From Candidatus Azambacteria bacterium (lineage in GTDB: Bacteria > Patescibacteriota > Minisyncoccia > GWC2-36-17 > M10-OD1-4): DNA of 64,000 nucleotides. Positions 24,639-43,666 of this stretch are shown here, piece after piece; positions within the stretch are counted from its first letter, which is position 1, and every line of letters starts with the position of its first letter. Below the pieces are notes generated by a model. It was not told where the DNA came from and made no database searches. It was given only the letters and a program-made list of their open reading frames with translations. The position numbers and the translations under genes are program-made. The DNA lies in NCBI GenBank assembly GCA_027048495.1, contig JALTWS010000011.1, positions 173 through 64,172 on the forward strand, in the 5' to 3' direction.

Positions 24639-24766
24639 GGAAATTTCCACCCCATTTCCATATAATTTCCTAAAAAATTTGAATAGGAAATTATATGGAA
24701 ATGGGGTGTTGCTTTTTTTGGGAAAATAGCATATACTTCTGGCAAATATAAGATTAGGAAATTTCC
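24639..24766. repeat. GGAAAT/ATTTCC hexamer array A (11-bp phased) with a 25-bp perfect inverted repeat
   Basis: ATTTCC at 24643, 24654 and 24665; GGAAAT at 24686 and 24697. The inverted repeat is CACCCCATTTCCATATAATTTCCTA (24648-24672) against TAGGAAATTATATGGAAATGGGGTG (24684-24708). GGAAATTTCC palindromes at 24639 and 24757. Confidence 0.85.
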
Positions 24767-24770
24767 ATAT

Positions 24771-25520
24771 ATGTATAACCTTGATTTTGAAGACAACAAA
24801 AAATGGGGAAGTGTACTTGAGGTAACTGTTGCTGTTTGGAAGGTTTCTGATGCCTCTATGAGCGATAACTTCTTAAAAGAGGAACTTAAAAAAACAGCAA
24901 AGAATATTTTAATTTTTTATACATATTATTTTTCTTCTTCAAACTTTGAAGATAAAAAATTAGAAAACAAGCTTATCTATTATCTGGATAAAATGATAGC
25001 TTTGCTTTCTTTGTCCCAGAGGCTTTCCAAGTTAAAGGAGATAAACTTTGTAATTTTAAAAAATGAATACAAAAAAATAAAATTTGAACTGTTGGCAAAA
25101 ATAGACCAAAGAAATATTCAAAACAAAAATAACAGTAAAAAAAGTACATTAGATGAAAGTCAGGGGTTGGAAACCTCTCAAGATTTAGAAGAAAATAAAG
25201 TTACTGAGAAAAAAAAAGAAGAAGAGGAGTTTAAAAAACAACAACAAGAAGAAAGTGAGCAGAAAGAACAAAACTCAGCAATAAAAAAAACCAAAACAAT
25301 AAAAAACAAAACTTATGATTTAAGTCCAAGACAGCAGGATATAATTGATCTTTTAAAAAGAAACCCCGATGCTAAAATAAGGCCAAAAGATATAGCAATG
25401 AGTTTTCCAAAAGTAACTCCAAGAACCATAAGGACAGACCTTAAAATTTTGTGTGATAAAAATATCTTAAAAAGATCAAGCAGGAAAGGACAATCTGTTT
25501 TTTACTACTTAGTTAAGTAA
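24771..25520 (+). CDS. Transcriptional regulator with C-terminal DeoR/HrcA-like winged HTH
   Basis: C-terminus LSPRQQDIIDLLKRNPDAKIRPKDIAMSFPKVTPRTIRTDLKILCDKNILKR resembles the DeoR-type HTH (TIRRDL); acidic K/E-rich linker; N-terminal helical domain of unknown family. Confidence 0.5.
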   Translation: MYNLDFEDNKKWGSVLEVTVAVWKVSDASMSDNFLKEELKKTAKNILIFYTYYFSSSNFEDKKLENKLIYYLDKMIALLSLSQRLSKLKEINFVILKNEYKKIKFELLAKIDQRNIQNKNNSKKSTLDESQGLETSQDLEENKVTEKKKEEEEFKKQQQEESEQKEQNSAIKKTKTIKNKTYDLSPRQQDIIDLLKRNPDAKIRPKDIAMSFPKVTPRTIRTDLKILCDKNILKRSSRKGQSVFYYLVK

Positions 25521-25528
25521 ATTTAAAC

Positions 25529-25676
25529 GGAAATTATATGGAAATGAATAGGAAATGAATAGGAAATAATTAGGAAATGAATAGGAAATTAAATTTCCTA
25601 TTCATTTCCTAATTATTTCCGCATAATTTCCATATAATTTCCTATTCATTTCCTAATTATTTCCTATTTAATTTCT
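25529..25676. repeat. GGAAAT/ATTTCC hexamer array B: 6 direct plus 7-8 inverted copies at exact 11-bp spacing
   Basis: GGAAAT starts at 25529, 25540, 25551, 25562, 25573 and 25584; ATTTCC starts at 25593, 25604, 25615, 25626, 25637, 25648, 25659 and (25671, degenerate); symmetry centre about 25591. Confidence 0.9.
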
Positions 25677-26411
25677 CAAGTTGGGGTTCAAATTTAGATA
25701 AAAGTGATGTGCTTTTTACATTTGCTTTTGAAAAAAATTTATATTTTGTTTTTTGAGAAAATTTTTGGTAGTGTTCTTTTTTAAAATTTAAGTTTTGCAA
25801 TTTTAATTTTTTGTTTTTTGAAAATTTTGAGTTTTTTATATTTTTGTTTGTTTTTGTTTTTTGAAAAATAAAAATTAACTTTTGTGTATAACTTTGCAAA
25901 CAAAATTTAGCAAAAAATTATTAAAGAACTTTTATTTTAAAATGCAAATTTGCTTGCAAAGTTATCCACAAAAAAAATTTTAAAAAACAGCAAAGTTTTT
26001 TAGAAAGAAAACAACTTTTAAAAAATCGTTTATTTTTAAGCTTTTTTCTTTTGTATTTGAATATGTTTTTTTGTGGGGTTTGTAATTTATAATGTGTTTG
26101 CGTTTGTTGATAGAAGTTTTTATATTTGCTATAATTTATGTAGCTTTGGGTAAAATGCTTGTAAATGCTTTGGGCTATTGATATACTTTTAAAAAGATGA
26201 TAAAATAGACTTGCAAGCTTGAGGTTCTTTTTGTGTATTTAATTTTTTCTCGGCAATAAATTTTTGAATCGCTGTTTCGCATAGCGGATAGTGGTTCAAA
26301 AATTTGTTGCTGGGTTCTGGTTAAGCGGTTTGAAAAAAGGAAAGAACTTTGAAAATTTAATAGCAACAACAGTAGGTTTTGGAAGAGTCTTGGTTTGAAA
26401 GCAGTCAGTGT

Positions 26412-26556
26412 TAGGAAATATTAGGAAGTTGTTAGGAAATGATTAGGAAATTTCCTGATGCAAACTTCATTAGGAAATTTTCCAAGGAAGGGATTAAAAG
26501 CTTTTGCTTGTTAATTTCCGTTTCCATTTCTTAGAAAAGTAAGTTCGTTTCCTAAA
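26412..26556. repeat. TAGGAAAT array C upstream of the giant surface-protein gene
   Basis: TAGGAA at 26412, 26422, 26433 and 26444 (10-11-bp spacing) and at 26471; inverted (A/G)TTTCC at 26514, 26520 and 26547. Confidence 0.8.
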
Positions 26557-26800
26557 ATAGGTTTTCTAACATTATCACTGAAAAAAGCTTGGAGTTAGCT
26601 GATCTCTTGTTCTGAAAAAATTTGTCAATTTGGTTAATTAGTTTGTTTGATACATAGAGTTAGGTCGATCCCTTTTTTGGGGAACTCGATTCTAATTGTA
26701 TTGAGAGGATAAATCATTAATTAGTATTTACTTTGTAAAGCAACATAATTAAGTAAACTTATCTGCCTTTGGCAGACAAGTTTGCGAAAAAATAATTAAT

Positions 26801-29800
26801 ATGAACGCATTATCAAGTAAAGCTACTGAGAAATTTAAGCAATTTCTTGCGATAGCTTTAGCTTTGGTTACAACTGTTGTTTTGTCTGGTATTGCAACAG
26901 TAATATCAGCAAACGCAGCTGGTGACGATATACTACAAGAAGGTAGCCTTATAAAGGCTCCTGATAGGCCAGAGGTTTATATTATAAATACTAAAGCTCA
27001 TGGCCAATACGCTGGATGGAAGAGGCACATATTCAATCCTGATGTGTTTAATATGTACGGTCATTTGAGTTGGGATGCTATAAAAATAGTGCCACAGTCA
27101 GTTATTGACATGTATGAAACTTCTAACCTTTACAGAGCAGATGGAGATCCAAGAGTGTATTACTTAAAAGAAGAAGGATCAACAGCTGTTAAATATCACA
27201 TTCAAGATGAAGCAGCATTTAACGCTTATGGTTTCAGCTGGGATCAAGTCTTCATAGTTAACGAAAGAGAAAGAGATTATTATCCAACAGGTTATGTAAT
27301 AACAGCTACTTCAGGTCTTCCAGGACAACAAAACAATAACAACAACGGAGGACAACAAGGGGGAACAACTCCTGTTGGAAGCGGACTTACAGTAAGTGTG
27401 GCTTCTGACAATCCGGTTGCGGATACAATTCTTTCAGATGACACATCAAACCAATATCCGCAAGCTTTGATTCCTTTCTTGAAGGTAAATTTTGCTGCTG
27501 GAAATGATGGAGATGTAAAAGTTACATCAGTAAGCTTCAAAAGAACAGGTATAGCATCAGACTCTGATCTTGGAAATCTATACCTTTATGATGGAGAAAT
27601 GAGGGTTGCTGAATACACATCATTTAGCGACAGAGTTGTAACATTTACAAATCCATCAGGATTGTTTACTGTTCCAAAAGGAACAACAAAGACAATCACC
27701 TTAAAAGGTGACCTAGCAAGAGGGTCAACTCCTGTTTCTGCATCAAAGACAATAGGATTTGATCTTGTTTCAGCTTCTGATGTAACAACAGACGGCGCTG
27801 CTGTTTCAGGATCATTCCCAATTATGGGAAATAAGATGGCAACAGCTCAGGTGTCTGATCTTGGATACCTTTACATTGACGCTTATGAAACAACAAATCC
27901 TTCATCTTTGAAGGGTGATGCAACAAACCAAGAGTTGTGGAGATTCAGCCTTATTTCTGGAAATCAAGATATGGAAGTAAGAAAGATTAAGCTTACAATG
28001 GTTGGAACAATCTCACCAACAGATATTCAAAATTTAAAGCTTGAGGTTGGAGGTGTTCAGGTTGGATCAGCTCAAGCTATTGCTTCTGACAACACAGTTA
28101 TATTTGACCTTTCATCAAATCCTATAAGGATTAACTCAGGTCAAACAAAGATTGTTTCTTTGAAGGGTGATATGAATGGAGGAGCAGGAAGGAATTTTTA
28201 CTTCTCAATTCAAAGATCATCTGATGTTGTGGTTTATGATAGAGGATATGGAGTATTTGTCACAATGGCAAAGGATACTCAAACAGGAGCATTTGGTATC
28301 GTAAAACCAACATCAGCAACTTCAGTTGATGCCGGAACATTGACGCTTAGTGTTGCAACAGACTCACCAACAGGAAATATTCCTGCTTCTGCAACAGGAG
28401 TTACATTGGCTAAGTTTGGATTTTATGCATCAGGAGAGTCTGTAAAAGTTGACAACCTTTCAGTAAAATGTAATTCAAGCAATACAGGACTTTACATTGA
28501 TAACGTAAAGCTTCTTCTTGAAGGTTCACAGGTTGGATCAACTGCAACAACACTTCAATGTAACAATTCAGCTACTGTAAGCTTCACATTTGGAAATACA
28601 TTCCAAGTTCCTGCAGGAACAACAAAATACTTAACAATTGTTGCTGATACTACAGATTCTACTGTATCAGACGGTAATACAATAGCTGTAAGTTTAGTTG
28701 CTGGATCAGGAAATGCTCAAGGATTATCAACATTAAACTCAATAAGCACAACTGATCAAACAGCAAGAACTGTAACAGTTAAATCAGGAGCAGCTACTGT
28801 TGCTAAAAACACAGCATTTGGAGATAAAACATCTTCAAATCCAACAGGAACAGTTAATGCTTCTGGAGTTAAGATTGGATCATTTGTTATAACTGCAGGA
28901 GCTGGAGAGGCTATTGATGTAACACAGATAACTCTTGCTGATGATGCAACAACACAATTGGGAGACAACTTCCAAAACTTGATGCTAAAAGACAGCAACG
29001 GAAATCAGATTGGTTCAACAATAGCAACTCTTAATACAACAGCAGGAACATATACATTTACACCTGCATCTCCTATCAGGATAAATGCAGGACAACAGTT
29101 TGTTGTAGATGTATTTGCTGATATTAAGAGTTCTGCTGCTGATACAGGAACCTCTTTGTCACCGGTTGCAAAAGTCAACAGCGTAACAGCAACAGGAGTA
29201 AGCACATCATCTGATGCAAGTTACACAACAGCAGTAAACTTGCAAACAGCTTACATAGCTTCAAGTGGTAACTTGACAGTTACAACAGGAGCAGATACTC
29301 CTATAGCTCAACAGCTAGTTATGGGATCAACAGATGTCGCTTTGGCAACATTTAAGCTAGAAGCTAATGCCGCAGAGGACATCATAATCTCTGACATAAC
29401 AGTTTCTGATCAAGTTTCTTCAGGAGCAACAGGAACACTTAAGAACTTGAAGCTTTATGTAGATGGTGTTCAAGTTGGCCAAACTGTCCAGTTGTCTGGA
29501 ACAGATTCAACATCAACTTATGCAAACGCTAATTTCTCAGGATTAAATCTTGTAATCCCAAGAAATAGCTCAAAGACATTGACAGTTAGGGCCGATGTAA
29601 CATCATACGATGATGGAGCTTCAGCAGGATCAACTCATAAGATCGCTCTTCTTGTAAACAAAGGAGGCGGAAGTGAGTCAATAACTGCAAAAGGAGCATC
29701 ATCTGGAGCATCTATAACAGGAGCATCTCTTGATTATGGAACATCTCCAGATGCAGATCAGACAGCAAACACAATGACAGTATACGCTACAAAAGTATCT

Positions 29801-30268
29801 GTTGCGTTTGCTTCTGACTCTCCTTCAGGAGCAGCTGGTCCTGCAGCAGGAGCTGTTGTTATGAAAGTTGTAGTTTCTAACTCATCAAATGTTGGAAACT
29901 ACTCAGCAACGGTTAAACTTATGAACTTTGCAATGAATTCTGTCAACTTTGGAACAACAAATACTAAAGCCTTGACAGTTTACAAAGATTCAATAGCAAG
30001 TGGTAATCAAGTTGCTACAACAAACTATCCAACAGGAGTGCAAGTTAGTGATTCTGCAATAACAGATGCTAACTTCACTGATGTTGAGATAGCAGCTGGA
30101 TCTTCAAAGACATTCATCGTTACTTTGGACACCTCAGAAGCTGGAGCAACTGATTCACTTTCTGTAGGTATGTCTCAAGGTGACCTTGAGTGGAGAGACA
30201 GCAAGGTAACAACCAACATTACCACAGTTGACAGCTTACCGTTGCTAAGCAAGACATTGACTTACTAA
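26801..30268 (+). CDS. Large secreted Thr/Ser/Gly/Val-rich repetitive surface protein (S-layer protein or adhesin candidate)
   Basis: Sec signal peptide (...VISANA|AGDD), about 230-aa N-terminal domain, then about 8 tandem roughly 100-aa beta-rich repeats with the recurring pattern L-K-L-x-V-G-G-V-Q-V-G...I-R-I-N-x-G-Q; codon and GC usage differ from neighbours (highly-expressed-gene-like); terminator immediately downstream. Confidence 0.7.
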   Translation: MNALSSKATEKFKQFLAIALALVTTVVLSGIATVISANAAGDDILQEGSLIKAPDRPEVYIINTKAHGQYAGWKRHIFNPDVFNMYGHLSWDAIKIVPQSVIDMYETSNLYRADGDPRVYYLKEEGSTAVKYHIQDEAAFNAYGFSWDQVFIVNERERDYYPTGYVITATSGLPGQQNNNNNGGQQGGTTPVGSGLTVSVASDNPVADTILSDDTSNQYPQALIPFLKVNFAAGNDGDVKVTSVSFKRTGIASDSDLGNLYLYDGEMRVAEYTSFSDRVVTFTNPSGLFTVPKGTTKTITLKGDLARGSTPVSASKTIGFDLVSASDVTTDGAAVSGSFPIMGNKMATAQVSDLGYLYIDAYETTNPSSLKGDATNQELWRFSLISGNQDMEVRKIKLTMVGTISPTDIQNLKLEVGGVQVGSAQAIASDNTVIFDLSSNPIRINSGQTKIVSLKGDMNGGAGRNFYFSIQRSSDVVVYDRGYGVFVTMAKDTQTGAFGIVKPTSATSVDAGTLTLSVATDSPTGNIPASATGVTLAKFGFYASGESVKVDNLSVKCNSSNTGLYIDNVKLLLEGSQVGSTATTLQCNNSATVSFTFGNTFQVPAGTTKYLTIVADTTDSTVSDGNTIAVSLVAGSGNAQGLSTLNSISTTDQTARTVTVKSGAATVAKNTAFGDKTSSNPTGTVNASGVKIGSFVITAGAGEAIDVTQITLADDATTQLGDNFQNLMLKDSNGNQIGSTIATLNTTAGTYTFTPASPIRINAGQQFVVDVFADIKSSAADTGTSLSPVAKVNSVTATGVSTSSDASYTTAVNLQTAYIASSGNLTVTTGADTPIAQQLVMGSTDVALATFKLEANAAEDIIISDITVSDQVSSGATGTLKNLKLYVDGVQVGQTVQLSGTDSTSTYANANFSGLNLVIPRNSSKTLTVRADVTSYDDGASAGSTHKIALLVNKGGGSESITAKGASSGASITGASLDYGTSPDADQTANTMTVYATKVSVAFASDSPSGAAGPAAGAVVMKVVVSNSSNVGNYSATVKLMNFAMNSVNFGTTNTKALTVYKDSIASGNQVATTNYPTGVQVSDSAITDANFTDVEIAAGSSKTFIVTLDTSEAGATDSLSVGMSQGDLEWRDSKVTTNITTVDSLPLLSKTLTY

Positions 30269-30314
30269 GTCAATCTTGCAAAAAAGGCAAAAGCCAAAAG
30301 CTTAGCCTTGCAAA

Positions 30315-30350
30315 ACACCCCCGTTTTTACGGGGGTGTTTTGTTGTATTT
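30315..30350 (+). terminator. Strong intrinsic terminator
   Basis: ACACCCCCG-ttttta-CGGGGGTGT (9-bp perfect stem) followed by TTTGTTGTATTTTT. Confidence 0.8.
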
Positions 30351-30385
30351 TTGGGAGTTTTGTTTTAAAATGGCTAGTAAGTTTT

Positions 30386-32623
30386 ATGGAAAAGTTTGTA
30401 AAAAATTTAATACTTTTGTTTTTTGTTTTTCCGATTTTTTTTGTTAGCTGGACGATGTATCCTTGGAATTTTGGGAAGACGGTTTATTTTTTAATTTTTG
30501 TTGATTTGGTTTTTGCTTTGGCTTTGTTTTTTATTTTGTTTTTTAGAGGGAAACTGAAGAAATTTTTGCTTTTGGATTATGCGGTTTTTGGCTTTTTGCT
30601 TGTTATGCTTTTTTCTTCTTTTTTTGGAGTTGATTTTGAAAAAAGCTTTTTTGGCGACCAGCAAAGAGCGCAAGGAACATTTGTGTTTTTGCATTTTGGG
30701 CTGTTTTATCTGCTTTTAAGGCAATTTTTTAACTCAAAAAAGGATTGGCTTTTGGCATCTTTGATTTCTGTTTTTTCTGCTTTTGTTTCTTTGGTTGTTG
30801 GATTTTTGGGCTATTTTAAGATTGCTTTTGAAAGCTTATCTTTTGGTGGCAGGATATCCGGACTTGAAGGGAATCCTATATTTTTTGCCGGGTATTTGCT
30901 TTTGCCTGCATTTTTGTCTTTTTTGGCGGTTTTATTTTTTGATGAGAAGCTAAAACACCAGTTTAAGCTGTTGTTTGGATTAAGAAATTGGCTTTATTTT
31001 TTGGGATTTTTGTTGTTTTTTGGAATATTTTTCTCTCAAGCAAGAGGAGTTGCGCTTGGGATTATCTTGTCGCTTTTGTTTTTTTGGCTGATTTTTTCTT
31101 TTTCTGAAATATTCAAAAAAAGTATAAAAAGAATTGTTTTTTTGGTCGGTGTCGTTTTTTTTGCTTTTTTGGCATTTTTGTATGTTTTTAACCAAAAATC
31201 AAGCTTTTTTGCAGACAACTACCCGGAAGTTTCAAGGTTTTTGGATATAACAACAGAAAATAAAACGGCAAAAACCAGACTTATAGCTTGGGACATAGCA
31301 AAAGAAGGGTTTTTAAAAAGGCCAATTTTTGGTTTTGGTCCGGAAAATTATCAGGCAGTTTTTAATAAATATTATAATCCAGATCTCTTGAAGTATTCTT
31401 TTTCAGAAACTGTCTGGGACAAGCCTCATAATTATTTTTTGGAAATACTTGCAGAAGAAGGTATTTTTGGAATTATTTTTTACATTTTTATTATATTTGT
31501 TGCTTTTTATTATGTGTATTATTTTTATAAGCAAGCAGAAAACAAAAGAGAAAAAGTTTTTGCAATTGTATTTTTTGGAGCCTTGCTGGCGTTTTTGACA
31601 AAAAACGCATTTGCTTTTGAAACATTCTCTTCTTTGCTTATGTGGTTTTTTATGCTTGCTTTTTGCGCGTTTTTATATGAGTTTGCCAAAAACAAAGAAG
31701 AGTTTTATGAGCTTAAAAACAAAGCTATTTTGAATTTTTCATTTTTTGTTGCTTTGGTGTTTGTTGGGTTTTCTTTATTTTTTTCAGCAAATATGCTCAA
31801 GAGTTCCTACTATATGAGTTCTGCAAGAGATGCCCTTGGCATAAACTCTGTTTACAAATGGCAAGAGAGCGCAAAAAAAGCAATTTCTGCTTTTCCTTTT
31901 GAGGTTGAAAATGCTGTGTTTTTGACAAAAGACCTTTCTGATTTTGACAATAAAAATTTGCTTACCGCAGATGTTTTAAAAAATATATATCCTGATATTG
32001 AAAGTGTGCTTTTGAAAAGATATAATAAAAGCCAAGATTTTTTAAGCGCTTTTTGGTTGGGACAGCTTTACGCTCTTTTGGGAGAGTATGTTGACAGCAA
32101 ATATTACCAAGATTCAATAAAGTATTTTAACGCCGCTTGGAAAGTGAACAAAGACAGGCAAGCTGTTCCTTTGCTTTTGGGGAAAGTTTACTCTTCTTTG
32201 GGAGAAAACAAAAAAGCTATTGAAATTTTAGAAGAGCTTGCCAGAAAAAACGATTCTTTGCCAGAGCCGCATTGGTTTTTAGGGCTTGCTTATTTGGAAG
32301 ATGGGCAGGAGGAGAAAGGCATTTTGGAGCTTGAAAAAGGAAAAGAGTTTGGACTTAATTTGAAAAATAATATATTATTTTTATTAGACCTTTACCTTAA
32401 AAGGGAAGAGTACGAAAAAACAATACCTTTGTACGAAAGACTTATTAAAATTGACCCAAAAAACCCAACTTATTATCATGATCTTGGATTGATGTATTTT
32501 GCTGTTGGTGACAAAGATAAGTCTTTTGAGTATTTTCAAACAGCAATCCAAATGGATCCTTCCTTAAAAGATAGGGTAAAGAAGTTTTTTAAACTAAATG
32601 GTATAACAATTAACTTTGATTAA
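30386..32623 (+). CDS. Wzy_C-family (O-antigen ligase / PglL-like O-oligosaccharyltransferase) membrane protein with C-terminal TPR domain, paralog 1
   Basis: Polytopic membrane domain with periplasmic-loop motif RLIAWDIAKEGFLKRPIFGFGPENY...WDKPHNYFLEILAEEGIFG (Wzy_C signature with conserved His); C-terminal about 250 aa TPR repeats; ATG 30386 chosen because the longer ORF overlaps the upstream terminator. Confidence 0.7.
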   Translation: MEKFVKNLILLFFVFPIFFVSWTMYPWNFGKTVYFLIFVDLVFALALFFILFFRGKLKKFLLLDYAVFGFLLVMLFSSFFGVDFEKSFFGDQQRAQGTFVFLHFGLFYLLLRQFFNSKKDWLLASLISVFSAFVSLVVGFLGYFKIAFESLSFGGRISGLEGNPIFFAGYLLLPAFLSFLAVLFFDEKLKHQFKLLFGLRNWLYFLGFLLFFGIFFSQARGVALGIILSLLFFWLIFSFSEIFKKSIKRIVFLVGVVFFAFLAFLYVFNQKSSFFADNYPEVSRFLDITTENKTAKTRLIAWDIAKEGFLKRPIFGFGPENYQAVFNKYYNPDLLKYSFSETVWDKPHNYFLEILAEEGIFGIIFYIFIIFVAFYYVYYFYKQAENKREKVFAIVFFGALLAFLTKNAFAFETFSSLLMWFFMLAFCAFLYEFAKNKEEFYELKNKAILNFSFFVALVFVGFSLFFSANMLKSSYYMSSARDALGINSVYKWQESAKKAISAFPFEVENAVFLTKDLSDFDNKNLLTADVLKNIYPDIESVLLKRYNKSQDFLSAFWLGQLYALLGEYVDSKYYQDSIKYFNAAWKVNKDRQAVPLLLGKVYSSLGENKKAIEILEELARKNDSLPEPHWFLGLAYLEDGQEEKGILELEKGKEFGLNLKNNILFLLDLYLKREEYEKTIPLYERLIKIDPKNPTYYHDLGLMYFAVGDKDKSFEYFQTAIQMDPSLKDRVKKFFKLNGITINFD

Positions 32624-32627
32624 AAAT

Positions 32628-33200
32628 ATGAAAAAGGCAATATTAATATTTTTTGTGGCAGTTGTTGCTGTTTTGGCATTTTATTTTTTTGAAAATGCCA
32701 AGGGCAAACCGTTTTTGTCAATATCTGAGATTGAAGAGCTTGCAAAAAAAGACAGCAATATGGAGTTTTATGCAAAAGAACTTAAAAGGGCGGTAGAAGA
32801 GTTCAAAGAAGACGATCCGAAATCGTATTCTGCTTTGGGACTTGCTTGGAAAGGTGTGGCAGACCAGACAAACAATGAAAAATACTACAAAAATGCGCTT
32901 TTGGTTTATCAGGAGGCAATTGATTTAACTAACAGAAAAAATACATTGTTTATTTTAAATGCTGGAAACATGGCATCTTATTTGGGAGATTACGAGCTTG
33001 CAGAAAAGTATTATGAGGAAGCAACCTATGTTGCTCCCGGGGACCAGGACGGATATATAAAGCTTTATGAGCTTTACAGATACAAACTTGGAAATCCAAA
33101 AGATAAGATAATAGCCGTGCTTGATAGAGGAATAGACAGAATGGTAAATCCAGCATATCTTAAACAGCTAAAAGACGCTTATTTAAGCGAAGAAAAATAG
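32628..33200 (+). CDS. Membrane-anchored TPR-repeat protein
   Basis: N-terminal TM (ILIFFVAVVAVLAFYFF) then TPR-like helices (YYKNALLVYQEAIDL..., LGDYELAEKYYEEATYVAPGD). Confidence 0.5.
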   Translation: MKKAILIFFVAVVAVLAFYFFENAKGKPFLSISEIEELAKKDSNMEFYAKELKRAVEEFKEDDPKSYSALGLAWKGVADQTNNEKYYKNALLVYQEAIDLTNRKNTLFILNAGNMASYLGDYELAEKYYEEATYVAPGDQDGYIKLYELYRYKLGNPKDKIIAVLDRGIDRMVNPAYLKQLKDAYLSEEK

Positions 33201-33201
33201 C

Positions 33202-35469
33202 GTGATTGCATTAGATTTATTAAAAATAGCAAAATATTTTCTGTTTGCGTCTGCTTTTGTCCCTGTTTTGGTTTGGGATAAGTTTTTGTATCCTTTTGTC
33301 ACTTTAAGGGCAAGCGCATTTTTATTTTTTGTTGAATTGGCTTTGCTTGCTTTTTTGGTTTGGGTGTTTTTTTATCAAAAAGGAAGTTTTACGTTCAAAA
33401 AAAGCTGGCTTTTTTTGTCTTTTTTTGCATTTTTTGTTATTAGCTTTGTATCTGCTGTTTTTGGTGAGTCATTTTTTGTAAGCTTTTTTGGAACGATAGA
33501 AAGGTGGTGGGGAGTTTTTACTCTTTTGCATTATTTGGTGTTTTTCTTTTTGGCAAGAGCATTGTTTGAAAAAGATGACTGGATGACATTTTTTAGGCTT
33601 TTTGTTTTTGTGTCTTTTTTTGTTTCTTTGATTGGGCTTTTGCAAAAAGCAGGGTTGGGGCTTTTTGCTTTTTCTGGGGGCAGGATTATAGGAACTTTAG
33701 GGAATGCCGCTTACTTTTCCGTATATCTTTTACTTAACTTTGCTTTGTCTTTGTATCTTTTTTTCTCAGAAAGGCATAAAAAATATAGCTTTTTTTATGT
33801 TGCAGTAGCGTTTTTAAATTTTGTTGCATTTTTGTTTACAGGAACAAGAGGAACTTTTTTAGGATTTATTTTTGGAGTATTTTTAGTTTCTTTTTTGTAT
33901 ATTTTTTTGGGTAAAAGCAAAAAAGTAAAAGCATCTTTTCTTTTTGTTTCTTTTTTGATTACAATTTCTGTTTTGGTTGCATTTTTGGCAAAAGACACTA
34001 ATTTTGTAAAAAATACTCCGTTTTTGAGCAGGATTTCCACAATATCTTTGGAAGGAGGAAGTATAAGCACAAGATTTATAAGTTGGCAAGCGGCTTTGGA
34101 GGGTTTTTTTGATAATCCTTTTTTGGGAGTTGGTCCGGAAAATTATAATATAGTATTTAATAAATATTTTAAGTCAGACTATTATCTTTATGCGGCGTCT
34201 GAGCCTTATTTTGACAGGGCGCACAACAACTTTTTGGACATACTTGCAACTTCAGGTATTTTTGGGCTTTTGTCTTATCTTTTTATGGTTTTTTTAATAT
34301 TTTATATTTTGGCAAGGCTTTACAGTCAAAAAAGGATTCAAGAAAAAGAGCTTTTGTTTTTTGTGTTTGTATTTTCTGCTTACTTTGTCCATTTATTTTT
34401 TGTTTTTGATGATATAACTTCATTTTTATATTTTGTGTCGTTTTTAGCATTTTTGGATTTTTTATTTTCAGAAAGAAAAATATTTTCCGAACAAGAAAAT
34501 AAAAGTTTTGATGCTTTTAAAAAAACAGTAGTTTTTGCTGGTATTGTTTTGGTTATTTTTTCTAGTTGGCAGTATAACCTAAAAGTTGCTTATGCTTCAA
34601 AAATAGCAAATGATGCTTTTTTGGAAGATCAAAAAGGAAATTTAAAAGAGGCAGTAGATTTATACTTAAAGTCTCTTTCGCTTAATTCAAAGCCCCAAAA
34701 AGATATAGTGTATTCTTTTGTTGATTTTTTATATAGCAAATTTCCGTTGTATGAAAAGGATATAAAAATTTCAAAAGATGATGATTTGGCGTATCAGAAA
34801 GGGCTTTTGGAAGCCAAAAAATACATAAAAAAGCAAATAGAGTTAAACCAAAAAGATGCTCTGCTTTTTGTGAAGCTGGCAAATATAAACAGCGCTTTGT
34901 ATGTTGTTAAAAAAGATATAAGTTTTACAAAAAAAGCAGAGGAAGCATTAAAGACTGCTATATCTTTAAGCGAGGATAGGCCTCAGTATTACCATTTTTT
35001 GGTTGATTTGTATATTTTGTCAGGGCAAAATCAAAAAGCGCTTAAAACAGCAGAATTTGCATTAAAAATGAATGAAAAATACAATGCCAGCTATTTTTAT
35101 GTTGCAAAAGCGTATATTGCCCAAAAAGAGTATGAAAAAGCAAAAGAATACTTGGACTTGTCTATGGAGAAAAAATATCTACCTTCTTTGGGAGAGGTGG
35201 TGTTTTTTGCTTCTGAGATGGAAAAGTCGGGAAAATACCAATATGCCGCAGATATTTATAAAAAATACTTGCAAAGAAATAAAAAGGATGCTTTGCCTGC
35301 AGTTAGGCTTGTTATTTTAAGCTTAAAAATGAGCAACGAAAAAGATGCTATAATGTATGCTAAGATGTCAGCTGATATTAACCCAAGCTTAAAAAAAGAT
35401 GTTGACTATATAATATCAGAAATTAAAAAAGGCAATAAGGAAAATATTCTTAAAATACTAACACAATGA
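33202..35469 (+). CDS. Wzy_C-family O-antigen ligase/O-OTase-like membrane protein with C-terminal TPR, paralog 2 (GTG start)
   Basis: RFISWQAALEGFFDNPFLGVGPENY...FDRAHNNFLDILATSGIFGLLSY; C-terminal TPR repeats. Confidence 0.7.
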   Translation: MIALDLLKIAKYFLFASAFVPVLVWDKFLYPFVTLRASAFLFFVELALLAFLVWVFFYQKGSFTFKKSWLFLSFFAFFVISFVSAVFGESFFVSFFGTIERWWGVFTLLHYLVFFFLARALFEKDDWMTFFRLFVFVSFFVSLIGLLQKAGLGLFAFSGGRIIGTLGNAAYFSVYLLLNFALSLYLFFSERHKKYSFFYVAVAFLNFVAFLFTGTRGTFLGFIFGVFLVSFLYIFLGKSKKVKASFLFVSFLITISVLVAFLAKDTNFVKNTPFLSRISTISLEGGSISTRFISWQAALEGFFDNPFLGVGPENYNIVFNKYFKSDYYLYAASEPYFDRAHNNFLDILATSGIFGLLSYLFMVFLIFYILARLYSQKRIQEKELLFFVFVFSAYFVHLFFVFDDITSFLYFVSFLAFLDFLFSERKIFSEQENKSFDAFKKTVVFAGIVLVIFSSWQYNLKVAYASKIANDAFLEDQKGNLKEAVDLYLKSLSLNSKPQKDIVYSFVDFLYSKFPLYEKDIKISKDDDLAYQKGLLEAKKYIKKQIELNQKDALLFVKLANINSALYVVKKDISFTKKAEEALKTAISLSEDRPQYYHFLVDLYILSGQNQKALKTAEFALKMNEKYNASYFYVAKAYIAQKEYEKAKEYLDLSMEKKYLPSLGEVVFFASEMEKSGKYQYAADIYKKYLQRNKKDALPAVRLVILSLKMSNEKDAIMYAKMSADINPSLKKDVDYIISEIKKGNKENILKILTQ

Positions 35470-37571
35470 GTGAATATACTTTAAAAAACATAATAAAATT
35501 TGTGCTTGCTGTGTCTTTTTTTGCTCCGCTTATTGTTGCAAAAGGCTTTTTCTTTCCTTTTATAGTTCCAAAGACTATATTTTTCCAATCTTTGGTTCAG
35601 GTTGCGCTTTTGCTTTACATATTTTTGGTTATTTCAAACAAAAAATATTTGCCAAAGCTGGACCTTTTGTCAAAAAGCGTTTTGGTTTTTTATTTTATTT
35701 ATGTTATGTCGGCTATATTTGGAGAAAATATATTTAGGAGCTTTTTTGGCAACTTTGAGAGAATGCTTGGCGTTGTGAATTTAACTCATTTTGTTGCTTT
35801 ATTTTTTATATTAAAAGGCATTTTAAAAGATAAGCAGGAATGGATTTTTATGTTTCGCTGTTTTGTTTTTGCCGGTTTTTTGGTTGCTTTGTATGGAATT
35901 GCCCAAAAGTTTGGTTTCTCATTTTTGTTTGAATCCAAAGATCCAAGAATATCATCAACCATAGGCAATGCCGCTTTTTTTGCGGCGTATATGCTTTTTG
36001 TCTTTTTTATTTCTATTATTTTAATTCAAAAAGATAAAGTACAGGCAAGGCCTTTTTATTATACTGTTTTGCTTTTGAGCATGTTGTCAATTTATCTTAG
36101 CGAAACAAGGGGCGCTATTTTGGCGCTGGTTTTTTCTTTGTTGTTTTTGTTGGCGCTTTTTGTTTTAAAAAAGAAAGATGAGCTTGCAAGTATAACTTTA
36201 CAAAACAAAAATAAAATACTTGCTTGGATTTTTGGCGTGCTAGTTTTGTTTTTTGCTGTTTTTTTGATAAATCAGGATGCTTTTTATGGGCCGATAAAAA
36301 GAATAATGTCTATATCTTTTTCTGATGCTACTGTAAAAACAAGGATAGTATCTGCAAAAATAAGCGCAGAGGGAATAAAAGAGCATCTAATTTTAGGATG
36401 GGGACCGGAAAACTACAATCTTCTTTTTGATAAGTATTATGACCTTAGAATGTACCCTCAGGAAAGCTGGTTTGATCATGCGCATAATATAATATTTGAC
36501 ACACTGTCCAACTCAGGAATTTTAGGGCTTTTGTCTTATGTTTTTGTTTTTGTTGCTCTTTTTTATCTGCTTTTTGCTTATACAAAGTCAAACAAAGATG
36601 ACTACAAAACAGCGTATGTCATAGTGGCAATGATGATAGCTTATTTTTTCCAAAACCTTTTTGTTTTTGATGCTTTGGCAACTTATTTGCCTTTCTTTTT
36701 GGTGTTGTCTTTTGCTTCTTTTTTAACTTCACAAAAAGAAGAAGATAAAATAGAGAACAAAAAATTGCAGGTTCCTATCCAAGCTTTTGTGTTGCTTTTT
36801 TTAGCGTTTTGGTTTTTGTTTTACAATACAAATGTAAGGCCTGCGCTTGCTTCAAAATATCTTATTGAAGGTTCTTTGTATTTTGAATATGGAAGATATG
36901 ATTTGGCATTTGAATATTTTGAAAAATCCTATGAAAAATCTTTACAAGGAAAGCCGGAGATAGCAACAATGATGGCAGAGAAGGCCAACCAGATATACAA
37001 AAAAGAAAACATATCAAAGGAAGTTAAAGATTTTTTTGTCCAAAAAGCGATTCAAAAAGCAGAAGATGCGCTAAAGCGGGAGCCAAAAAACACTAGATAT
37101 TATATGACCTATGCTAGTCTATCTAACGCAAAAAGAGATGACAGGGAGTTTTTAAAAAAGCTGGATAAAATGATGGAAGAAAATTTACCAAAAAGTCCCA
37201 AAAAGCCTATTTATTATTTTCAGTGGTATCAAATAAATGTATTTTTAGGAGATTTTAAAAAAGCAGAGCAAATTATTAAAAAATCGTTAAGCCAGAAGGT
37301 TACTTACAATGGGACTTTGATATTAGCGAATTTTTACAAGGGTCAAAAAAGAAACGAAGATGCAAAAAATACTTATATGAACTTTGTTCAAAAAAGACAA
37401 GACGCAACAGTCCAGCAACTTGTCAGGATAGCTGTTGAGCTGGCAAGAATTGGGTATGACAAAGAAGCAATTGATGTTGCAAATACAATTTCAAAAAGAT
37501 ACGGATATTCGGATAATATAAGTAGTTTTGTGCAGGATATAAAAAATGGAAGATTTAACCAAAAACAATAA
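35466..37571 (+). CDS. Wzy_C-family O-antigen ligase/O-OTase-like membrane protein with C-terminal TPR, paralog 3
   Basis: RIVSAKISAEGIKEHLILGWGPENY...FDHAHNIIFDTLSNSGILGLLSY; ATGA overlap with paralog 2; C-terminal TPR. Confidence 0.7.
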   Translation: MSEYTLKNIIKFVLAVSFFAPLIVAKGFFFPFIVPKTIFFQSLVQVALLLYIFLVISNKKYLPKLDLLSKSVLVFYFIYVMSAIFGENIFRSFFGNFERMLGVVNLTHFVALFFILKGILKDKQEWIFMFRCFVFAGFLVALYGIAQKFGFSFLFESKDPRISSTIGNAAFFAAYMLFVFFISIILIQKDKVQARPFYYTVLLLSMLSIYLSETRGAILALVFSLLFLLALFVLKKKDELASITLQNKNKILAWIFGVLVLFFAVFLINQDAFYGPIKRIMSISFSDATVKTRIVSAKISAEGIKEHLILGWGPENYNLLFDKYYDLRMYPQESWFDHAHNIIFDTLSNSGILGLLSYVFVFVALFYLLFAYTKSNKDDYKTAYVIVAMMIAYFFQNLFVFDALATYLPFFLVLSFASFLTSQKEEDKIENKKLQVPIQAFVLLFLAFWFLFYNTNVRPALASKYLIEGSLYFEYGRYDLAFEYFEKSYEKSLQGKPEIATMMAEKANQIYKKENISKEVKDFFVQKAIQKAEDALKREPKNTRYYMTYASLSNAKRDDREFLKKLDKMMEENLPKSPKKPIYYFQWYQINVFLGDFKKAEQIIKKSLSQKVTYNGTLILANFYKGQKRNEDAKNTYMNFVQKRQDATVQQLVRIAVELARIGYDKEAIDVANTISKRYGYSDNISSFVQDIKNGRFNQKQ

Positions 37572-38103
37572 ATACAAAGAAAAATCTTTTGGTATTGTAC
37601 CTTTTTTTCAGGATAAAAAAGAGCTGTTTTTTCTTGTTGTTAAAAACAAAAACGGAGGGCATTGGGCTTTTCCAAAAGGACATAAAAATCAAAAAGAGCT
37701 GGATATTGATGCGGCAAAAAGGGAGTTTGAAGAAGAAACGGGCATTTTAAACTATGAAATTTTTTTTGAAGATACCAACTTCAAAGAAGAATATGAATTT
37801 GAAAAAGACGGCAAAAAGATAAAAAAAGAAGTAATCTATTTTCCGGCAAAAGTGTATGACAAAAAACTAAATTTGCAAAAAGAAGAAATATCAGATGCAA
37901 AATGGTTAAAATATGAACAGGCGCAAAAACAACTCACTTTCAAAGAGGCAAAAAATGTTCTTAAACAGGCAAATTATGAAATATTAAAAAGATTAAATTT
38001 TAAGATACCAATTTCGTTTGTGCTTAAGGTAATTGCTTTTGTGTTTGTGCCGTTTTTTTCTGTTGTTTTGTTTTTGCTTTGGTTTTTTCAAGACAAGGAG
38101 TGA
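37546..38103 (+). CDS. NUDIX hydrolase with C-terminal TM anchor
   Basis: Nudix box GHKNQKELDIDAAKREFEEETGI (GX5EX7REUXEEXGU). Confidence 0.8.
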   Translation: MEDLTKNNKYKEKSFGIVPFFQDKKELFFLVVKNKNGGHWAFPKGHKNQKELDIDAAKREFEEETGILNYEIFFEDTNFKEEYEFEKDGKKIKKEVIYFPAKVYDKKLNLQKEEISDAKWLKYEQAQKQLTFKEAKNVLKQANYEILKRLNFKIPISFVLKVIAFVFVPFFSVVLFLLWFFQDKE

Positions 38104-42407: not shown

Positions 42408-42410
42408 TCT

Positions 42411-43661: not shown

Positions 43662-43666
43662 AAGTT

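What the first reader, a model, noticed from the sequence alone, without database searches (positions are those of the whole stretch)
26801..37571. Candidate surface-protein O-glycosylation locus: S-layer-like 1155-aa Thr/Ser-rich protein followed by three tandem Wzy_C (PglL/WaaL-family) plus TPR paralogs and a TPR protein
The secreted protein consists of about 8 beta-rich about 100-aa repeats very rich in Thr/Ser/Ala/Gly, which are typical O-glycosylation targets. The next four genes are three paralogous polytopic proteins carrying the Wzy_C catalytic loop (..GFGPENY...(P/A)HN(Y/N/I)FL(E/D)...G(I/L)(F/L)G) fused to periplasmic TPR domains, plus a small membrane-anchored TPR protein. Wzy_C-family enzymes include PglL/PilO and the S-layer O-oligosaccharyltransferases WsaB/WsfB, and TPR domains are classic protein-substrate-recognition modules. 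The arrangement suggests an S-layer or adhesin glycosylation system with three transferases of differing specificity, rather than LPS O-antigen ligases. Transcription is insulated from the structural gene by a strong terminator (30315-30350).
Basis: inference. Interest (0 to 1): 0.7.

Follow-up and report, generated by a model that had tools for sequence, protein, structure and literature searches.

The report
Candidate Patescibacteria surface-protein glycosylation gene cluster
A large secreted surface protein of an ultra-small (Patescibacteria/CPR) bacterium is followed, here and in most relatives, by WaaL-fold membrane enzymes fused to TPR domains; the best reading is a dedicated system that glycosylates that protein, but this is inferred and not shown.

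Summary
26801-30268 encodes a secreted, acidic, 1155-aa protein (SP) with 23% Ser+Thr. A strong terminator follows, then three Wzy_C (PF04932) + TPR proteins and one small membrane-anchored TPR protein.

Corrections:
- SP has six ~160-aa repeats, not eight of ~100 aa.
- The gene order is W1, T, W2, W3.
- W1 most likely starts at ATG 30386, not TTG 30308.

New evidence:
- **Family:** SP belongs to a Patescibacteria-wide family (>370 homologues) with no Pfam annotation.
- **Linkage:** In 48 of 61 informative SP loci a Wzy_C gene lies downstream, against 1 of 66 upstream. Conversely, 29 of 34 W1-type genes have SP directly upstream.
- **Glycan genes:** GT4 glycosyltransferases and sugar epimerases are enriched downstream in relatives. 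None is present in this window.
- **Precedent:** The layout mirrors Firmicute S-layer glycosylation clusters (sgsE-wsaA-wsaB; WsfB).

Verdict: a probable new member of a known kind, namely dedicated O-oligosaccharyltransferases for an S-layer-like protein (confidence ~0.55). The acceptor is unproven. A cell-wall glycopolymer role is the main rival.

The parts
26801..30268 (+). SP: secreted surface protein, 1155 aa. It has a signal peptide or N-terminal helix (aa ~1-40, with ...SANA/AG), an N-terminal alpha/beta module (aa 41-176), a disordered Gln/Asn/Gly linker (176-190), and six homologous beta-sandwich repeats (192-1155).
   Evidence: ORF. There is no Pfam or NCBIfam family. More than 370 homologues at 37-70% identity exist in Patescibacteria. 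The AF2 model has pLDDT 90.1 and is all-beta after residue 190. Foldseek returns only generic Ig-like arrays. Six repeats are defined. The mature protein is 116 kDa, pI 4.6. Codon usage looks like that of a highly expressed gene.
26921..27328 (+). N-terminal module of SP (aa 41-176): two ~60-aa alpha/beta repeats, a putative cell-wall anchor.
   Evidence: In 24 of 96 full-length orthologues this position is taken by PG_binding_1 (PF01471, aa ~70-127). The module itself has no Pfam or PDB match. The anchor role is an inference from this domain replacement.
27374..30265 (+). Six homologous ~155-175-aa beta-sandwich repeats of SP. Ser+Thr is 25%. Each repeat opens with G.LTV...(D/T/S)(S/T/N)P.
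   Evidence: Profile-to-sequence cross-matches are mostly E 1e-7 to 1e-23, weaker for repeat 6.
30310..30353 (+). Intrinsic terminator or attenuator between SP and W1.
   Evidence: 15-bp stem, 8 G-C pairs, tetraloop and T-run. An equivalent hairpin follows the SP stop codon in 92 of 99 related loci, against 31 of 158 control segments.
30386..32623 (+). W1: WaaL-fold (Wzy_C) membrane enzyme, 745 aa. It has 12 TM helices, a 13th helix (aa 446-485) and a TPR solenoid (aa ~489-737). This paralog type is the one directly downstream of SP in 29 of 34 W1-seeded loci.
32616..33200 (+). T: small type-II membrane-anchored TPR protein (194 aa), analogous by gene position to WsaA. Its start overlaps the end of W1 by 8 nt.
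   Evidence: TPR hits fall below the Pfam cut-offs (E ~1e-4). There is an N-terminal TM helix. T-like genes lie downstream of SP in 36 of 61 loci and upstream in 1. T-like ORFs are the commonest ones in SP-to-Wzy_C gaps.
33202..35469 (+). W2: second WaaL-fold + TPR paralog (755 aa). It starts 2 nt after the T stop codon.
   Evidence: PF04932 at 76.1 bits and TPR_19. phmmer hits WaaL 7tpg with the R, R and H residues aligned. It is 29% identical to W1 and W3.
35466..37571 (+). W3: third WaaL-fold + TPR paralog (701 aa). It overlaps W2 by 4 nt.
   Evidence: PF04932 at 76.8 bits. There is a weak TIGR03097 hit ('putative O-glycosylation ligase, exosortase-associated'), below cut-off. The catalytic residues are conserved.

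Best explanation
This is a dedicated surface-protein O-glycosylation module of a Patescibacteria (CPR) bacterium.

SP is exported by Sec. It is held at the wall by its N-terminal module and displays six Ig-like beta-sandwich repeats. It is probably the abundant S-layer-like coat protein.

W1, W2 and W3 are WaaL/PglL-fold enzymes. Their outward-facing loop carries the Arg/Arg/His catalytic triad. They would transfer a glycan pre-assembled on undecaprenyl pyrophosphate onto Ser/Thr (or Tyr) hydroxyls of SP on the outer face of the membrane.

A 13th transmembrane helix places each enzyme's TPR solenoid next to the catalytic loop, where it would capture SP as the acceptor. The small anchored TPR protein T would be an accessory factor, as proposed for WsaA.

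The three ancient paralogs would differ in donor glycan or in acceptor site.

A strong terminator after SP keeps the structural gene at high expression and the enzymes at low expression.

**Shown here:** domain content, fold, residue conservation and conserved gene linkage.

**Inferred:** the topology, the identity of the acceptor, the donor, S-layer formation and the division of labour among the paralogs.
For: **Gene linkage**
1. Of 61 SP loci with at least 3 kb downstream, 48 carry a Wzy_C gene downstream (45 within 3 kb, 24 with two or more). Only 1 of 66 carries one upstream. That is 82 genes in 555 kb downstream against 1 in 628 kb upstream. With the T-like gene included, 55 of 61 loci are positive.
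2. In the reverse direction, 29 of 34 W1-type genes found in metagenomes have SP immediately upstream.
3. The linkage holds whatever the anchor module: 15 of 20 for PG_binding_1-type SP and 30 of 36 for the window's type. It therefore follows the repeat region and not the wall-binding part.

**Glycan genes in relatives**
4. GT4 genes occur 42 times downstream (27 loci) against 8 upstream. Epimerases/dehydratases occur 20 times downstream against 0 upstream. One locus, L003, reads SP, WzyC-TPR, TPR, WzyC-TPR, GT2, GT2, GT4, then three epimerases.

**Enzyme features**
5. PF04932 scores well above cut-off.
7. R220, R298 and H348 are invariant in 47 sequences, including W2 and W3. They match E. 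coli WaaL R215/R288/H338 and N. meningitidis PglL R224/R298/H349 (PMC3643930).
8. The W1 model has twelve core helices plus one more before the TPR domain. This places the TPR domain outside if the core has WaaL topology.

**Precedent**
9. In G. stearothermophilus, sgsE is followed by the TPR protein WsaA and the Wzy_C enzyme WsaB. In P. alvei, WsfB is a Wzy_C-TPR fusion (PMC2943079).
10. Dedicated O-OTases are typically encoded next to their targets (PMC3643930; PMC12645811).

**SP properties**
11. SP is secreted, 116 kDa, pI 4.6, 23% Ser+Thr and almost free of Cys.
12. Its codon bias suggests high expression, whereas W1-W3 look weakly expressed.
13. A conserved terminator follows SP in 92 of 99 loci.
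Against: - There is no direct evidence that SP is glycosylated or that it is the acceptor.
- The 64-kb window contains no glycosyltransferase, Wzx/ABC exporter or priming phosphoglycosyl transferase.
- PF04932 also covers ligases and polymerases that act on glycan acceptors.
- PglL_A and Wzy_C_2, the markers of the PglL/PglS O-OTase classes, are not detected.
- Thirteen of 61 loci have no Wzy_C gene within the available downstream sequence (3-10 kb), and seven of these keep only the small TPR gene. The TPR partner may therefore be more fundamental than the enzyme.
- Foldseek gives only generic Ig-array matches for SP, and lattice formation was not tested.
Confidence: 0.55

Rival explanations
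1. The Wzy_C-TPR proteins are ligases or polymerases of a cell-wall or membrane-linked glycopolymer (a secondary cell-wall polymer, lipoglycan or capsule-like layer). They sit beside the SP gene because that polymer supports, anchors or coats the surface layer. On this reading the acceptor is a glycan or lipid, not SP.
For: - PF04932 includes O-antigen ligases and polymerases.
- W3 has a weak EpsG (Wzy-like polymerase) hit at E 0.006.
- The best structural match is annotated 'polysaccharide polymerase/ligase'.
- GT4 and epimerase genes follow the cluster in relatives, as in any polysaccharide locus.
- From general knowledge, S-layer genes in Firmicutes also sit next to wall-polymer genes.
- TPR domains also scaffold polysaccharide export (reference 99 in PMC2943079).
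Against: - The linkage persists when the SP anchor module is swapped for PG_binding_1, with 15 of 20 such loci positive. That module would bind peptidoglycan directly.
- W1-type genes are almost always immediately after SP.
- All three paralogs keep the ligase/O-OTase Arg/Arg/His triad.
- No Wzx, Wzz or LCP-type partner was identified next to them in the window.
- From general knowledge, wall-polymer attachment in monoderms normally uses LCP enzymes and not Wzy_C.
Confidence: 0.25
2. The enzymes are general protein O-oligosaccharyltransferases, or are dedicated to other targets such as type IV pilins. SP is only one of many substrates, or a neighbour for expression reasons.
For: - PglL-type enzymes glycosylate many proteins (PMC3643930).
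- Patescibacteria express abundant pilins (PMC10936435).
- Three paralogs could serve different protein classes.
- W2/W3-type copies are less strictly positioned than W1.
Against: - General PglL enzymes are usually not target-linked and carry PglL_A/Wzy_C_2 (PMC12645811). Both markers are absent here.
- There is strong reciprocal synteny with SP.
- No pilin gene lies in the cluster in this window.
Confidence: 0.12
3. The TPR-bearing membrane proteins act non-enzymatically, as chaperones or assembly platforms for export, folding or lattice insertion of SP. The Wzy_C domain would be a membrane scaffold only.
For: - The small TPR protein alone follows SP in seven loci that lack a nearby Wzy_C gene.
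- TPR domains are protein-protein interaction modules.
- The TPR solenoid is the part of the fold predicted to face SP.
Against: - The catalytic Arg/Arg/His residues and flanking Gly/Asp/Asn are invariant in 47 sequences down to ~17% identity to W1. This argues for retained catalysis.
- Glycan-synthesis genes are enriched downstream in relatives.
Confidence: 0.05

Closest known systems
S-layer glycosylation (slg) clusters of Firmicutes: Geobacillus stearothermophilus sgsE-wsaA-wsaB and Paenibacillus alvei spaA/WsfB
   Same: - The surface-layer structural gene is followed directly by a Wzy_C-domain predicted O-oligosaccharyltransferase.
- A TPR element is present, either as a separate small protein (WsaA, 168 aa; here T, 194 aa) or fused to the enzyme's C-terminus (WsfB; here W1-W3) (PMC2943079).
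- Glycosyltransferase and nucleotide-sugar genes lie further downstream in relatives of this locus.
   Different: - The phylum is different (Patescibacteria).
- There are three ancient paralogs (~29% identity) instead of one enzyme.
- Fused and free-standing TPR elements occur together.
- The SP family is unrelated by sequence to SgsE/SpaA and has no SLH domain.
- This window has no glycan assembly genes.
- Sequence similarity to WsaB/WsfB could not be tested.
WaaL O-antigen ligase (Cupriavidus metallidurans, PDB 7TPG/7TPJ)
   Same: - The Arg/Arg/His catalytic residues align.
   Different: - Identity is only 14-15%.
- There is an extra 13th TM helix and a ~250-aa external TPR solenoid.
- The genomic context is a surface protein, not an LPS core or O-antigen cluster.
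- The one formally described isolate of the host phylum is reported as Gram-positive (PMC12281837), so a lipid A-core acceptor is unlikely.
Target-linked O-OTases of Gram-negatives (TfpO/PilO, TfpM, PglS) and general PglL
   Same: - They share the Wzy_C core and catalytic triad.
- Dedicated enzymes are encoded next to their protein substrate in the same orientation (PMC3643930, PMC12645811).
   Different: - The targets there are type IV pilins or ComP, not a 116-kDa multi-repeat surface protein.
- PglL_A (PF15864) and Wzy_C_2 (PF11846), typical of PglL/PglS, are not detected here.
- Those enzymes lack the long TPR solenoid seen here.
Predicted S-layer proteins of Patescibacteria (bioRxiv 10.1101/2024.05.28.596244)
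   Same: That survey predicts hexagonal S-layer lattices for Patescibacteria proteins of 1131-1274 aa (Nealson-, Doudna-, Kaiser-, Kazan- and Parcubacteria). These share the size class, the phylum and a multi-domain Ig-like build with this SP family.
   Different: - Identity with this family could not be verified. The accessions did not match the members I could look up, and the AFDB library was unavailable.
- The supplement has no hits for O-antigen, operon or gene neighbourhood, and only a reference-list hit for 'glycosyl'. The main text was not searched for these terms.

Membership tests
Wzy_C / WaaL-fold superfamily (PF04932) | Pfam PF04932 score above the gathering threshold | tested here: met
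   78.7, 76.1 and 76.8 bits against a 31.7 cut-off for W1, W2 and W3.
Wzy_C / WaaL-fold superfamily (PF04932) | 12-TM WaaL-like fold with a large extracytoplasmic loop between TM9 and TM10 | tested here: met
   [not shown]
Wzy_C / WaaL-fold superfamily (PF04932) | Conserved Arg, Arg, His catalytic residues (E. coli WaaL R215/R288/H338) | tested here: met
   R220, R298 and H348 are invariant in 47 sequences including W2 and W3. They align to the 7tpg residues. Reference residues are from PMC3643930.
WaaL O-antigen ligase in the strict sense | Acceptor is lipid A-core of an LPS-bearing outer membrane | tested here: inconclusive
   No LPS genes were found in the 64-kb window. The one formally described isolate of the phylum is reported as Gram-positive (PMC12281837), and CPR cells are described as monoderm (PMC8871954). 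The rest of this genome was not available.
WaaL O-antigen ligase in the strict sense | Gene located in an LPS core or O-antigen cluster | tested here: not met
   The neighbours are SP, a TPR protein, NUDIX and SecDF. The conserved partner across about 100 loci is SP.
PglL/PglS-class O-oligosaccharyltransferases | PglL_A (PF15864) and Wzy_C_2 (PF11846) domains flanking Wzy_C | tested here: not met
   Neither family is reported for W1-W3 at E <= 0.01. The criteria are from PMC3643930 and PMC12645811.
PglL/PglS-class O-oligosaccharyltransferases | Demonstrated transfer of Und-PP-glycan to protein Ser/Thr | not testable with these tools
   Needs biochemistry or glycoproteomics.
S-layer O-OTase module (WsaA/WsaB, WsfB type) | Wzy_C enzyme encoded directly downstream of the surface-layer structural gene | tested here: met
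   W1 starts 118 nt after the SP stop codon. This position is conserved: 45 of 61 loci have a Wzy_C gene within 3 kb, and 29 of 34 in the reverse test.
S-layer O-OTase module (WsaA/WsaB, WsfB type) | TPR element fused to the enzyme (WsfB) or encoded as an adjacent small protein (WsaA) | tested here: met
   All three enzymes have a C-terminal TPR domain. T (194 aa) is TPR-like, with Pfam hits below the cut-offs. The precedent is in PMC2943079.
S-layer O-OTase module (WsaA/WsaB, WsfB type) | Cluster also holds glycosyltransferases, nucleotide-sugar genes and an exporter | tested here: not met
   None is present in this 64-kb window. In relatives the feature is partly present: GT4 in 27 loci and epimerases in 17 loci downstream. 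No exporter was identified.
S-layer O-OTase module (WsaA/WsaB, WsfB type) | Sequence relatedness to WsaB/WsfB | not tested
   The reference sequences were not obtainable with the tools.
S-layer protein | Secreted, abundant, weakly acidic, Cys-poor protein of 40-200 kDa with a wall-anchoring module | tested here: inconclusive
   There is a signal-like N-terminus. The mature protein is 116 kDa, pI 4.6, 0.2% Cys. Codon bias suggests high expression. The anchor role is inferred only from PG_binding_1 replacing the module in orthologues.
S-layer protein | Self-assembly into a two-dimensional lattice | not testable with these tools
   No multimer prediction or imaging was available. A preprint predicts lattices for Patescibacteria proteins of similar size, but identity with this family is unverified.

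The most novel reading that the evidence does not exclude
Across Patescibacteria, a conserved coat protein is patterned by up to three ancient WaaL-fold-TPR transferases, with W1 strictly tied to the coat gene. Each would read the Ig-like repeats through its external TPR solenoid and add a different glycan or hit a different site. The resulting glycan code on the S-layer would then be a major determinant of host recognition, phage susceptibility and envelope integrity in these episymbionts. This would be a phylum-wide, genetically compact S-layer maturation machine that has not been described.
Probability: 0.2. Interest if true: 0.7.

Novelty: new member of a known kind. Interest (0 to 1): 0.5.

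Why it matters
Patescibacteria (CPR) are a large and mostly uncultured part of bacterial diversity. They live attached to other cells. Their envelope is known mainly from microscopy, with little molecular detail.

This locus names concrete candidates for the main coat protein and for the enzymes that would decorate it. These candidates recur across Azam-, Falkow-, Magasanik-, Komeili-, Doudna-, Kaiser-, Staskawicz- and Yonathbacteria. That gives direct targets for three kinds of work:
- glycoproteomics in the few available co-cultures;
- cryo-ET interpretation;
- studies of host attachment and phage receptors.

The result also extends the 'S-layer gene plus Wzy_C-TPR transferase' design from Firmicutes to a distant phylum. 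No paper in the searchable library pairs CPR with O-antigen ligase or oligosaccharyltransferase genes.

Tried and rejected
1. **Profile of the full Wzy_C-TPR alignment against PDB sequences.** The result was swamped by TPR proteins and said nothing new about the membrane domain.
2. **Foldseek of the SP model against the PDB.** It returned only generic Ig-like arrays (PrgB, alpha-2-macroglobulin, integrins). No specific S-layer homologue was found.
3. **AFDB50 fold search.** This was meant to link SP to the UniProt accessions of predicted Patescibacteria S-layer proteins. The library was unavailable.
4. **Exact-sequence look-ups.** They returned other accessions (A0A1F5PJP7, A0A1G2SCB0, HFC11069.1 'peptidoglycan-binding protein'), so that link stays unverified.
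5. **N-terminal module of SP against Pfam and PDB.** There was no significant match. Only non-significant NdhS/Tlr0636 hits appeared.
6. **Metagenome scan with the broad alignment A2.** It was repeated with W1-type orthologues only.
7. **SecD/SecF and NUDIX downstream as parts of the system.** They are not conserved next to SP in relatives. NUDIX recurs only in the closest locus, L008. Both were rejected as parts.
8. **The TAGGAAAT array upstream of SP as a conserved operator.** The exact motif is not enriched in related loci. It is kept only as a passing observation.
9. **Classical WaaL function.** This was rejected as unlikely on context and on the reported envelope type of the phylum.
10. 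**Recent tandem duplication of the three enzymes.** This was rejected because they are ~29% identical to each other, and W1-type copies form a distinct group that keeps the first position after SP in related loci.

Full report
**What is in the sequence**

The window is low in G+C (~32%) and almost all of its genes are on the + strand. Gene content and best hits place it in Patescibacteria/CPR. A DUF5656 protein is present, and homologues are named Patescibacteria, Parcubacteria and Azambacteria.

The finding's coordinates hold the following features:

| Feature | Coordinates | Size |
|---|---|---|
| SP | 26801-30268 | 1155 aa |
| Terminator (15-bp stem + T-run) | 30310-30353 | |
| W1 | 30386-32623 | 745 aa |
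| T | 32616-33200 | 194 aa |
| W2 | 33202-35469 | 755 aa |
| W3 | 35466-37571 | 701 aa |

The longest W1 ORF begins at TTG 30308, just upstream of the terminator stem, and would span the terminator. ATG 30386 is therefore the likely start.

W1/T and W2/W3 overlap by 8 and 4 nt, and T/W2 are 1 nt apart. The four genes therefore look like one translationally coupled unit.

Each of W1-W3 scores 76-79 bits on Pfam Wzy_C (cut-off 31.7). Each also has C-terminal TPR matches. T has an N-terminal membrane helix and weak TPR hits.

**The surface protein**

SP has no Pfam or NCBIfam family. Even so, it has more than 370 homologues at 37-70% identity and 1130-1370 aa. All come from Patescibacteria, and almost all are labelled hypothetical. 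A few are named 'peptidoglycan-binding protein'.

The AlphaFold model built on 114 sequences is confident (pLDDT 90.1). It shows:
- an N-terminal helix (signal peptide with ...SANA/AG);
- an alpha/beta module (aa 45-175);
- a disordered Gln/Asn/Gly linker;
- an all-beta chain.

Profile cross-matching resolves that chain into six homologous repeats of ~155-175 aa, with E-values mostly 1e-7 to 1e-23 and weaker for repeat 6. Foldseek finds only generic Ig-like arrays.

The mature protein is 116 kDa, pI 4.6, 23% Ser+Thr (25% in the repeats) and 0.2% Cys.

Its codon usage is the most biased in the window. Four-fold codon boxes are almost exclusively A/U-ending, yet the NNC share in two-fold pyrimidine boxes is 0.39, second only to EF-P. 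W1-W3 score 0.12-0.18. This suggests high expression of SP and low expression of the enzymes.

In 24 of 96 full-length orthologues, PG_binding_1 occupies the place of the window's N-terminal module. This is the basis for calling that module a wall anchor. The call is an inference, because the module itself matches nothing known.

**The enzymes**

The W1 model built on 47 sequences is very confident (pLDDT 93.4, pTM 0.90). Its membrane part matches the O-antigen ligase WaaL:
- Foldseek TMt 0.62;

R94, N163, R220, R298, G316, G318, D345 and H348 are invariant across the 47 sequences, including W2 and W3. R220, R298 and H348 correspond to the essential triad of E. coli WaaL (R215/R288/H338) and N. 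meningitidis PglL (R224/R298/H349) (PMC3643930). They also align to the WaaL structure sequence.

The model shows twelve core helices, a ~75-residue loop carrying the His, and then one extra long helix (446-485) leading into about nine TPR-like helical pairs. If the core has WaaL topology, with the C-terminus inside the cell (general knowledge of the WaaL structure), the 13th helix puts the TPR solenoid on the outer face beside the catalytic loop. This topology is inferred, not measured.

W1, W2 and W3 share only ~29% identity. W1-type genes form a distinct group that always takes the first position after SP and is followed by T. W2/W3-type genes are more widespread.

**Is the neighbourhood meaningful?**

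Five distant homologues on long contigs show these gene orders:
- SP, WzyC-TPR, TPR, WzyC, WzyC-TPR;
- SP, WzyC-TPR, TPR, WzyC-TPR, GT2, GT2, GT4, three epimerases;
- SP, TPR, PurL, WzyC-TPR;
- SP, TPR;
- SP (PG_binding_1 type), WzyC-TPR.

A scan of GTDB species genomes gave 80 more SP loci from many candidate classes. These were scored with local HMMs:

| Measure | Downstream of SP | Upstream of SP |
|---|---|---|
| Loci with a Wzy_C gene | 48 of 61 | 1 of 66 |
| Loci with a Wzy_C gene within 3 kb | 45 of 61 | |
| Loci with two or more Wzy_C genes | 24 of 61 | |
| Wzy_C genes per sequence scanned | 82 in 555 kb | 1 in 628 kb |
| T-like small TPR gene | 36 of 61 loci | 1 hit in all loci |
| Loci with either a Wzy_C or a T-like gene | 55 of 61 | |

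When SP and the first Wzy_C gene are 0.6-3 kb apart, the gene in between is usually T-like (14 cases) or an inserted IS200/RAYT-like transposase (5 cases).

In the reverse direction, a metagenome scan seeded with W1-type enzymes gave 44 loci. Of the 34 with at least 600 nt upstream, 29 have SP directly upstream. Three of the five misses simply lack enough upstream sequence.

The linkage does not depend on the anchor type: 15 of 20 for PG_binding_1-type SP and 30 of 36 for the window's type.

Glycan-synthesis genes are enriched on the same side. GT4 genes number 42 downstream (27 loci) against 8 upstream. Epimerases/dehydratases number 20 downstream against 0 upstream.

A G+C-rich terminator hairpin follows the SP stop codon in 92 of 99 loci, against 31 of 158 control segments.

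**What this window lacks**

No glycosyltransferase, flippase/exporter or priming transferase is encoded anywhere in the 64 kb. The cluster is followed by a NUDIX gene, an unknown gene and secDF. None of these is conserved next to SP except NUDIX in the closest relative. The donor pathway must lie elsewhere in this genome, if it exists at all.

**Interpretation**

The closest described system is the S-layer glycosylation cluster of Firmicutes. In G. stearothermophilus, the S-layer gene sgsE is followed by wsaA (a 168-aa TPR protein) and wsaB (a Wzy_C predicted O-oligosaccharyltransferase). In P. alvei, WsfB is a Wzy_C enzyme with a C-terminal TPR (PMC2943079).

Dedicated O-OTases of Gram-negatives are likewise encoded next to their substrates (PMC3643930; PMC12645811). 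The present locus has both TPR arrangements at once, and three enzymes.

A lipid A-core acceptor is unlikely. The one formally described isolate of the phylum is reported as Gram-positive (PMC12281837), and CPR cells have been described as monoderm (PMC8871954).

I therefore commit to dedicated O-glycosylation of SP by W1-W3, with the external TPR domains and T acting in acceptor capture (confidence ~0.55).

The main rival (~0.25) is that the enzymes ligate or polymerise a wall or membrane glycopolymer associated with the coat. Two observations weigh against it without excluding it: the linkage is independent of the anchor module, and W1 sits strictly next to SP.

Two further rivals are less likely:
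- a general O-OTase role, or one aimed at pilins (~0.12);
- a purely chaperone role (~0.05).

**Membership**

The proteins are members of the Wzy_C/WaaL-fold superfamily by HMM score, fold and catalytic residues. All three features were tested and met.

They fail the PglL/PglS markers PglL_A and Wzy_C_2. They also fail the genomic-context criterion for WaaL.

They meet the positional and TPR criteria of the WsaA/WsaB/WsfB module. The 'full slg cluster' criterion is not met in this window. Sequence relatedness to WsaB/WsfB could not be tested.

SP meets the compositional expectations of an S-layer protein, but lattice formation is untested. A preprint predicts hexagonal lattices for Patescibacteria proteins of 1131-1274 aa (10.1101/2024.05.28.596244). 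I could not verify that these belong to the same family. The preprint's supplement has no hits for O-antigen, operon or gene neighbourhood.

**Novelty and score**

In the searchable library, no listed paper pairs CPR/Parcubacteria with O-antigen ligase, Wzy_C or oligosaccharyltransferase. The design principle is known. The phylum, the SP family, the triple ancient paralogy and the breadth of the conservation are new.

I rate it a new member of a known kind, with interest 0.5. It is not a surprise to a glycobiologist. It does give envelope biology of ultra-small bacteria concrete and testable gene candidates.

Noticed in passing
window 24665-26478 (dense at 25521-25676 and 26412-26478): An array of (T)AGGAAAT motifs is phased at exactly 11 nt. 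About six copies lie on the + strand, followed by about seven on the - strand, forming a 74-nt imperfect palindrome just after the stop codon of ORF 24771-25520. A second cluster of four copies lies ~330 nt upstream of the SP start, and three more lie around the start of ORF 24771. Fifteen of the 18 exact copies in the 64-kb window fall here, against ~5 expected in the whole window. The exact motif is not enriched in related loci. It may be an operator array for the adjacent HTH protein.
   Followed up: partly
window 24771-25520 (+); homologues in about 40 related loci, 1-3 kb upstream of SP: This 249-aa protein has membrane segments (~106-182) and a weak HTH match (HTH_11/DeoR, E 0.002). Iterative-search (jackhmmer) hits lie upstream of SP in about 40 loci; several are ~100-aa ORFs, two of them called HTH_17. 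They are either this longer form on the same strand or a ~100-aa HTH_17 protein on the opposite strand. Several relatives also have an ECF sigma factor plus a DUF5667 protein directly before SP. The coat gene appears to have dedicated regulators.
   Followed up: partly
window 26107-26135 and 26136-26800: The best promoter-like site (TTGATA, 17 nt, TATAAT with an extended TG) lies ~670 nt upstream of the SP start codon. This implies a long leader, as is common for S-layer genes. No RNA family matched there.
   Followed up: no
window 23910-24626 (+): A trypsin-like (HtrA-type) protease gene lies upstream of SP. Homologues sit upstream of SP in 18 related loci, some with PDZ domains. It may act in envelope-protein quality control linked to the coat protein.
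   Followed up: partly
window 37546-38103 (+): A NUDIX hydrolase gene overlaps the 3' end of W3 by 26 nt, and its product has a C-terminal hydrophobic tail. It is conserved at this position only in the closest relative, L008. A role in nucleotide-sugar or polyprenyl-diphosphate turnover is conceivable but unsupported.
   Followed up: partly
window 31841-32620, 34610-35466, 36873-37568 (TPR domains of W1, W2, W3): The three TPR solenoids differ sharply in charge: pI 5.5 for W1, against 9.1 for W2 and 9.5 for W3. This is consistent with different binding partners or sites on the acidic SP.
   Followed up: no
window 47077-48687 (+); L005 21880-23558; L006 18138-22040: A second secreted protein has Lamin-tail (LTD) and PKD domains. 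Giant LTD/Laminin_G_3 proteins also lie within 10 kb of SP in two relatives. Surface-protein genes may cluster in these genomes.
   Followed up: no
window 41364-45364 (+): Three genes lie in a row: a Sigma70_r4 + HARE-HTH protein, an unknown 416-aa protein, and a TraG/VirD4-like coupling ATPase with a treble-clef zinc finger. This may be a remnant or part of a DNA-transfer or uptake system.
   Followed up: no
L091 1981-2574, L092 932-1525, L096 4442-4999, L036 13441-14037: An IS200/RAYT-like transposase ORF (~190 aa, with an HVHGILII motif) is inserted after SP, directly before W1 in three of the four listed loci (L091, L092, L096). It splits the otherwise tight pair.
   Followed up: no
L016, L017, L019, L020, L023-L027 and others (record titles): Many GTDB records that carry this Patescibacteria-type SP/Wzy_C-TPR cluster are titled 'uncultured Gammaproteobacteria bacterium' or 'Candidatus Saccharibacteria'. 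These look like mislabelled MAG titles and not true occurrences outside the phylum.
   Followed up: no
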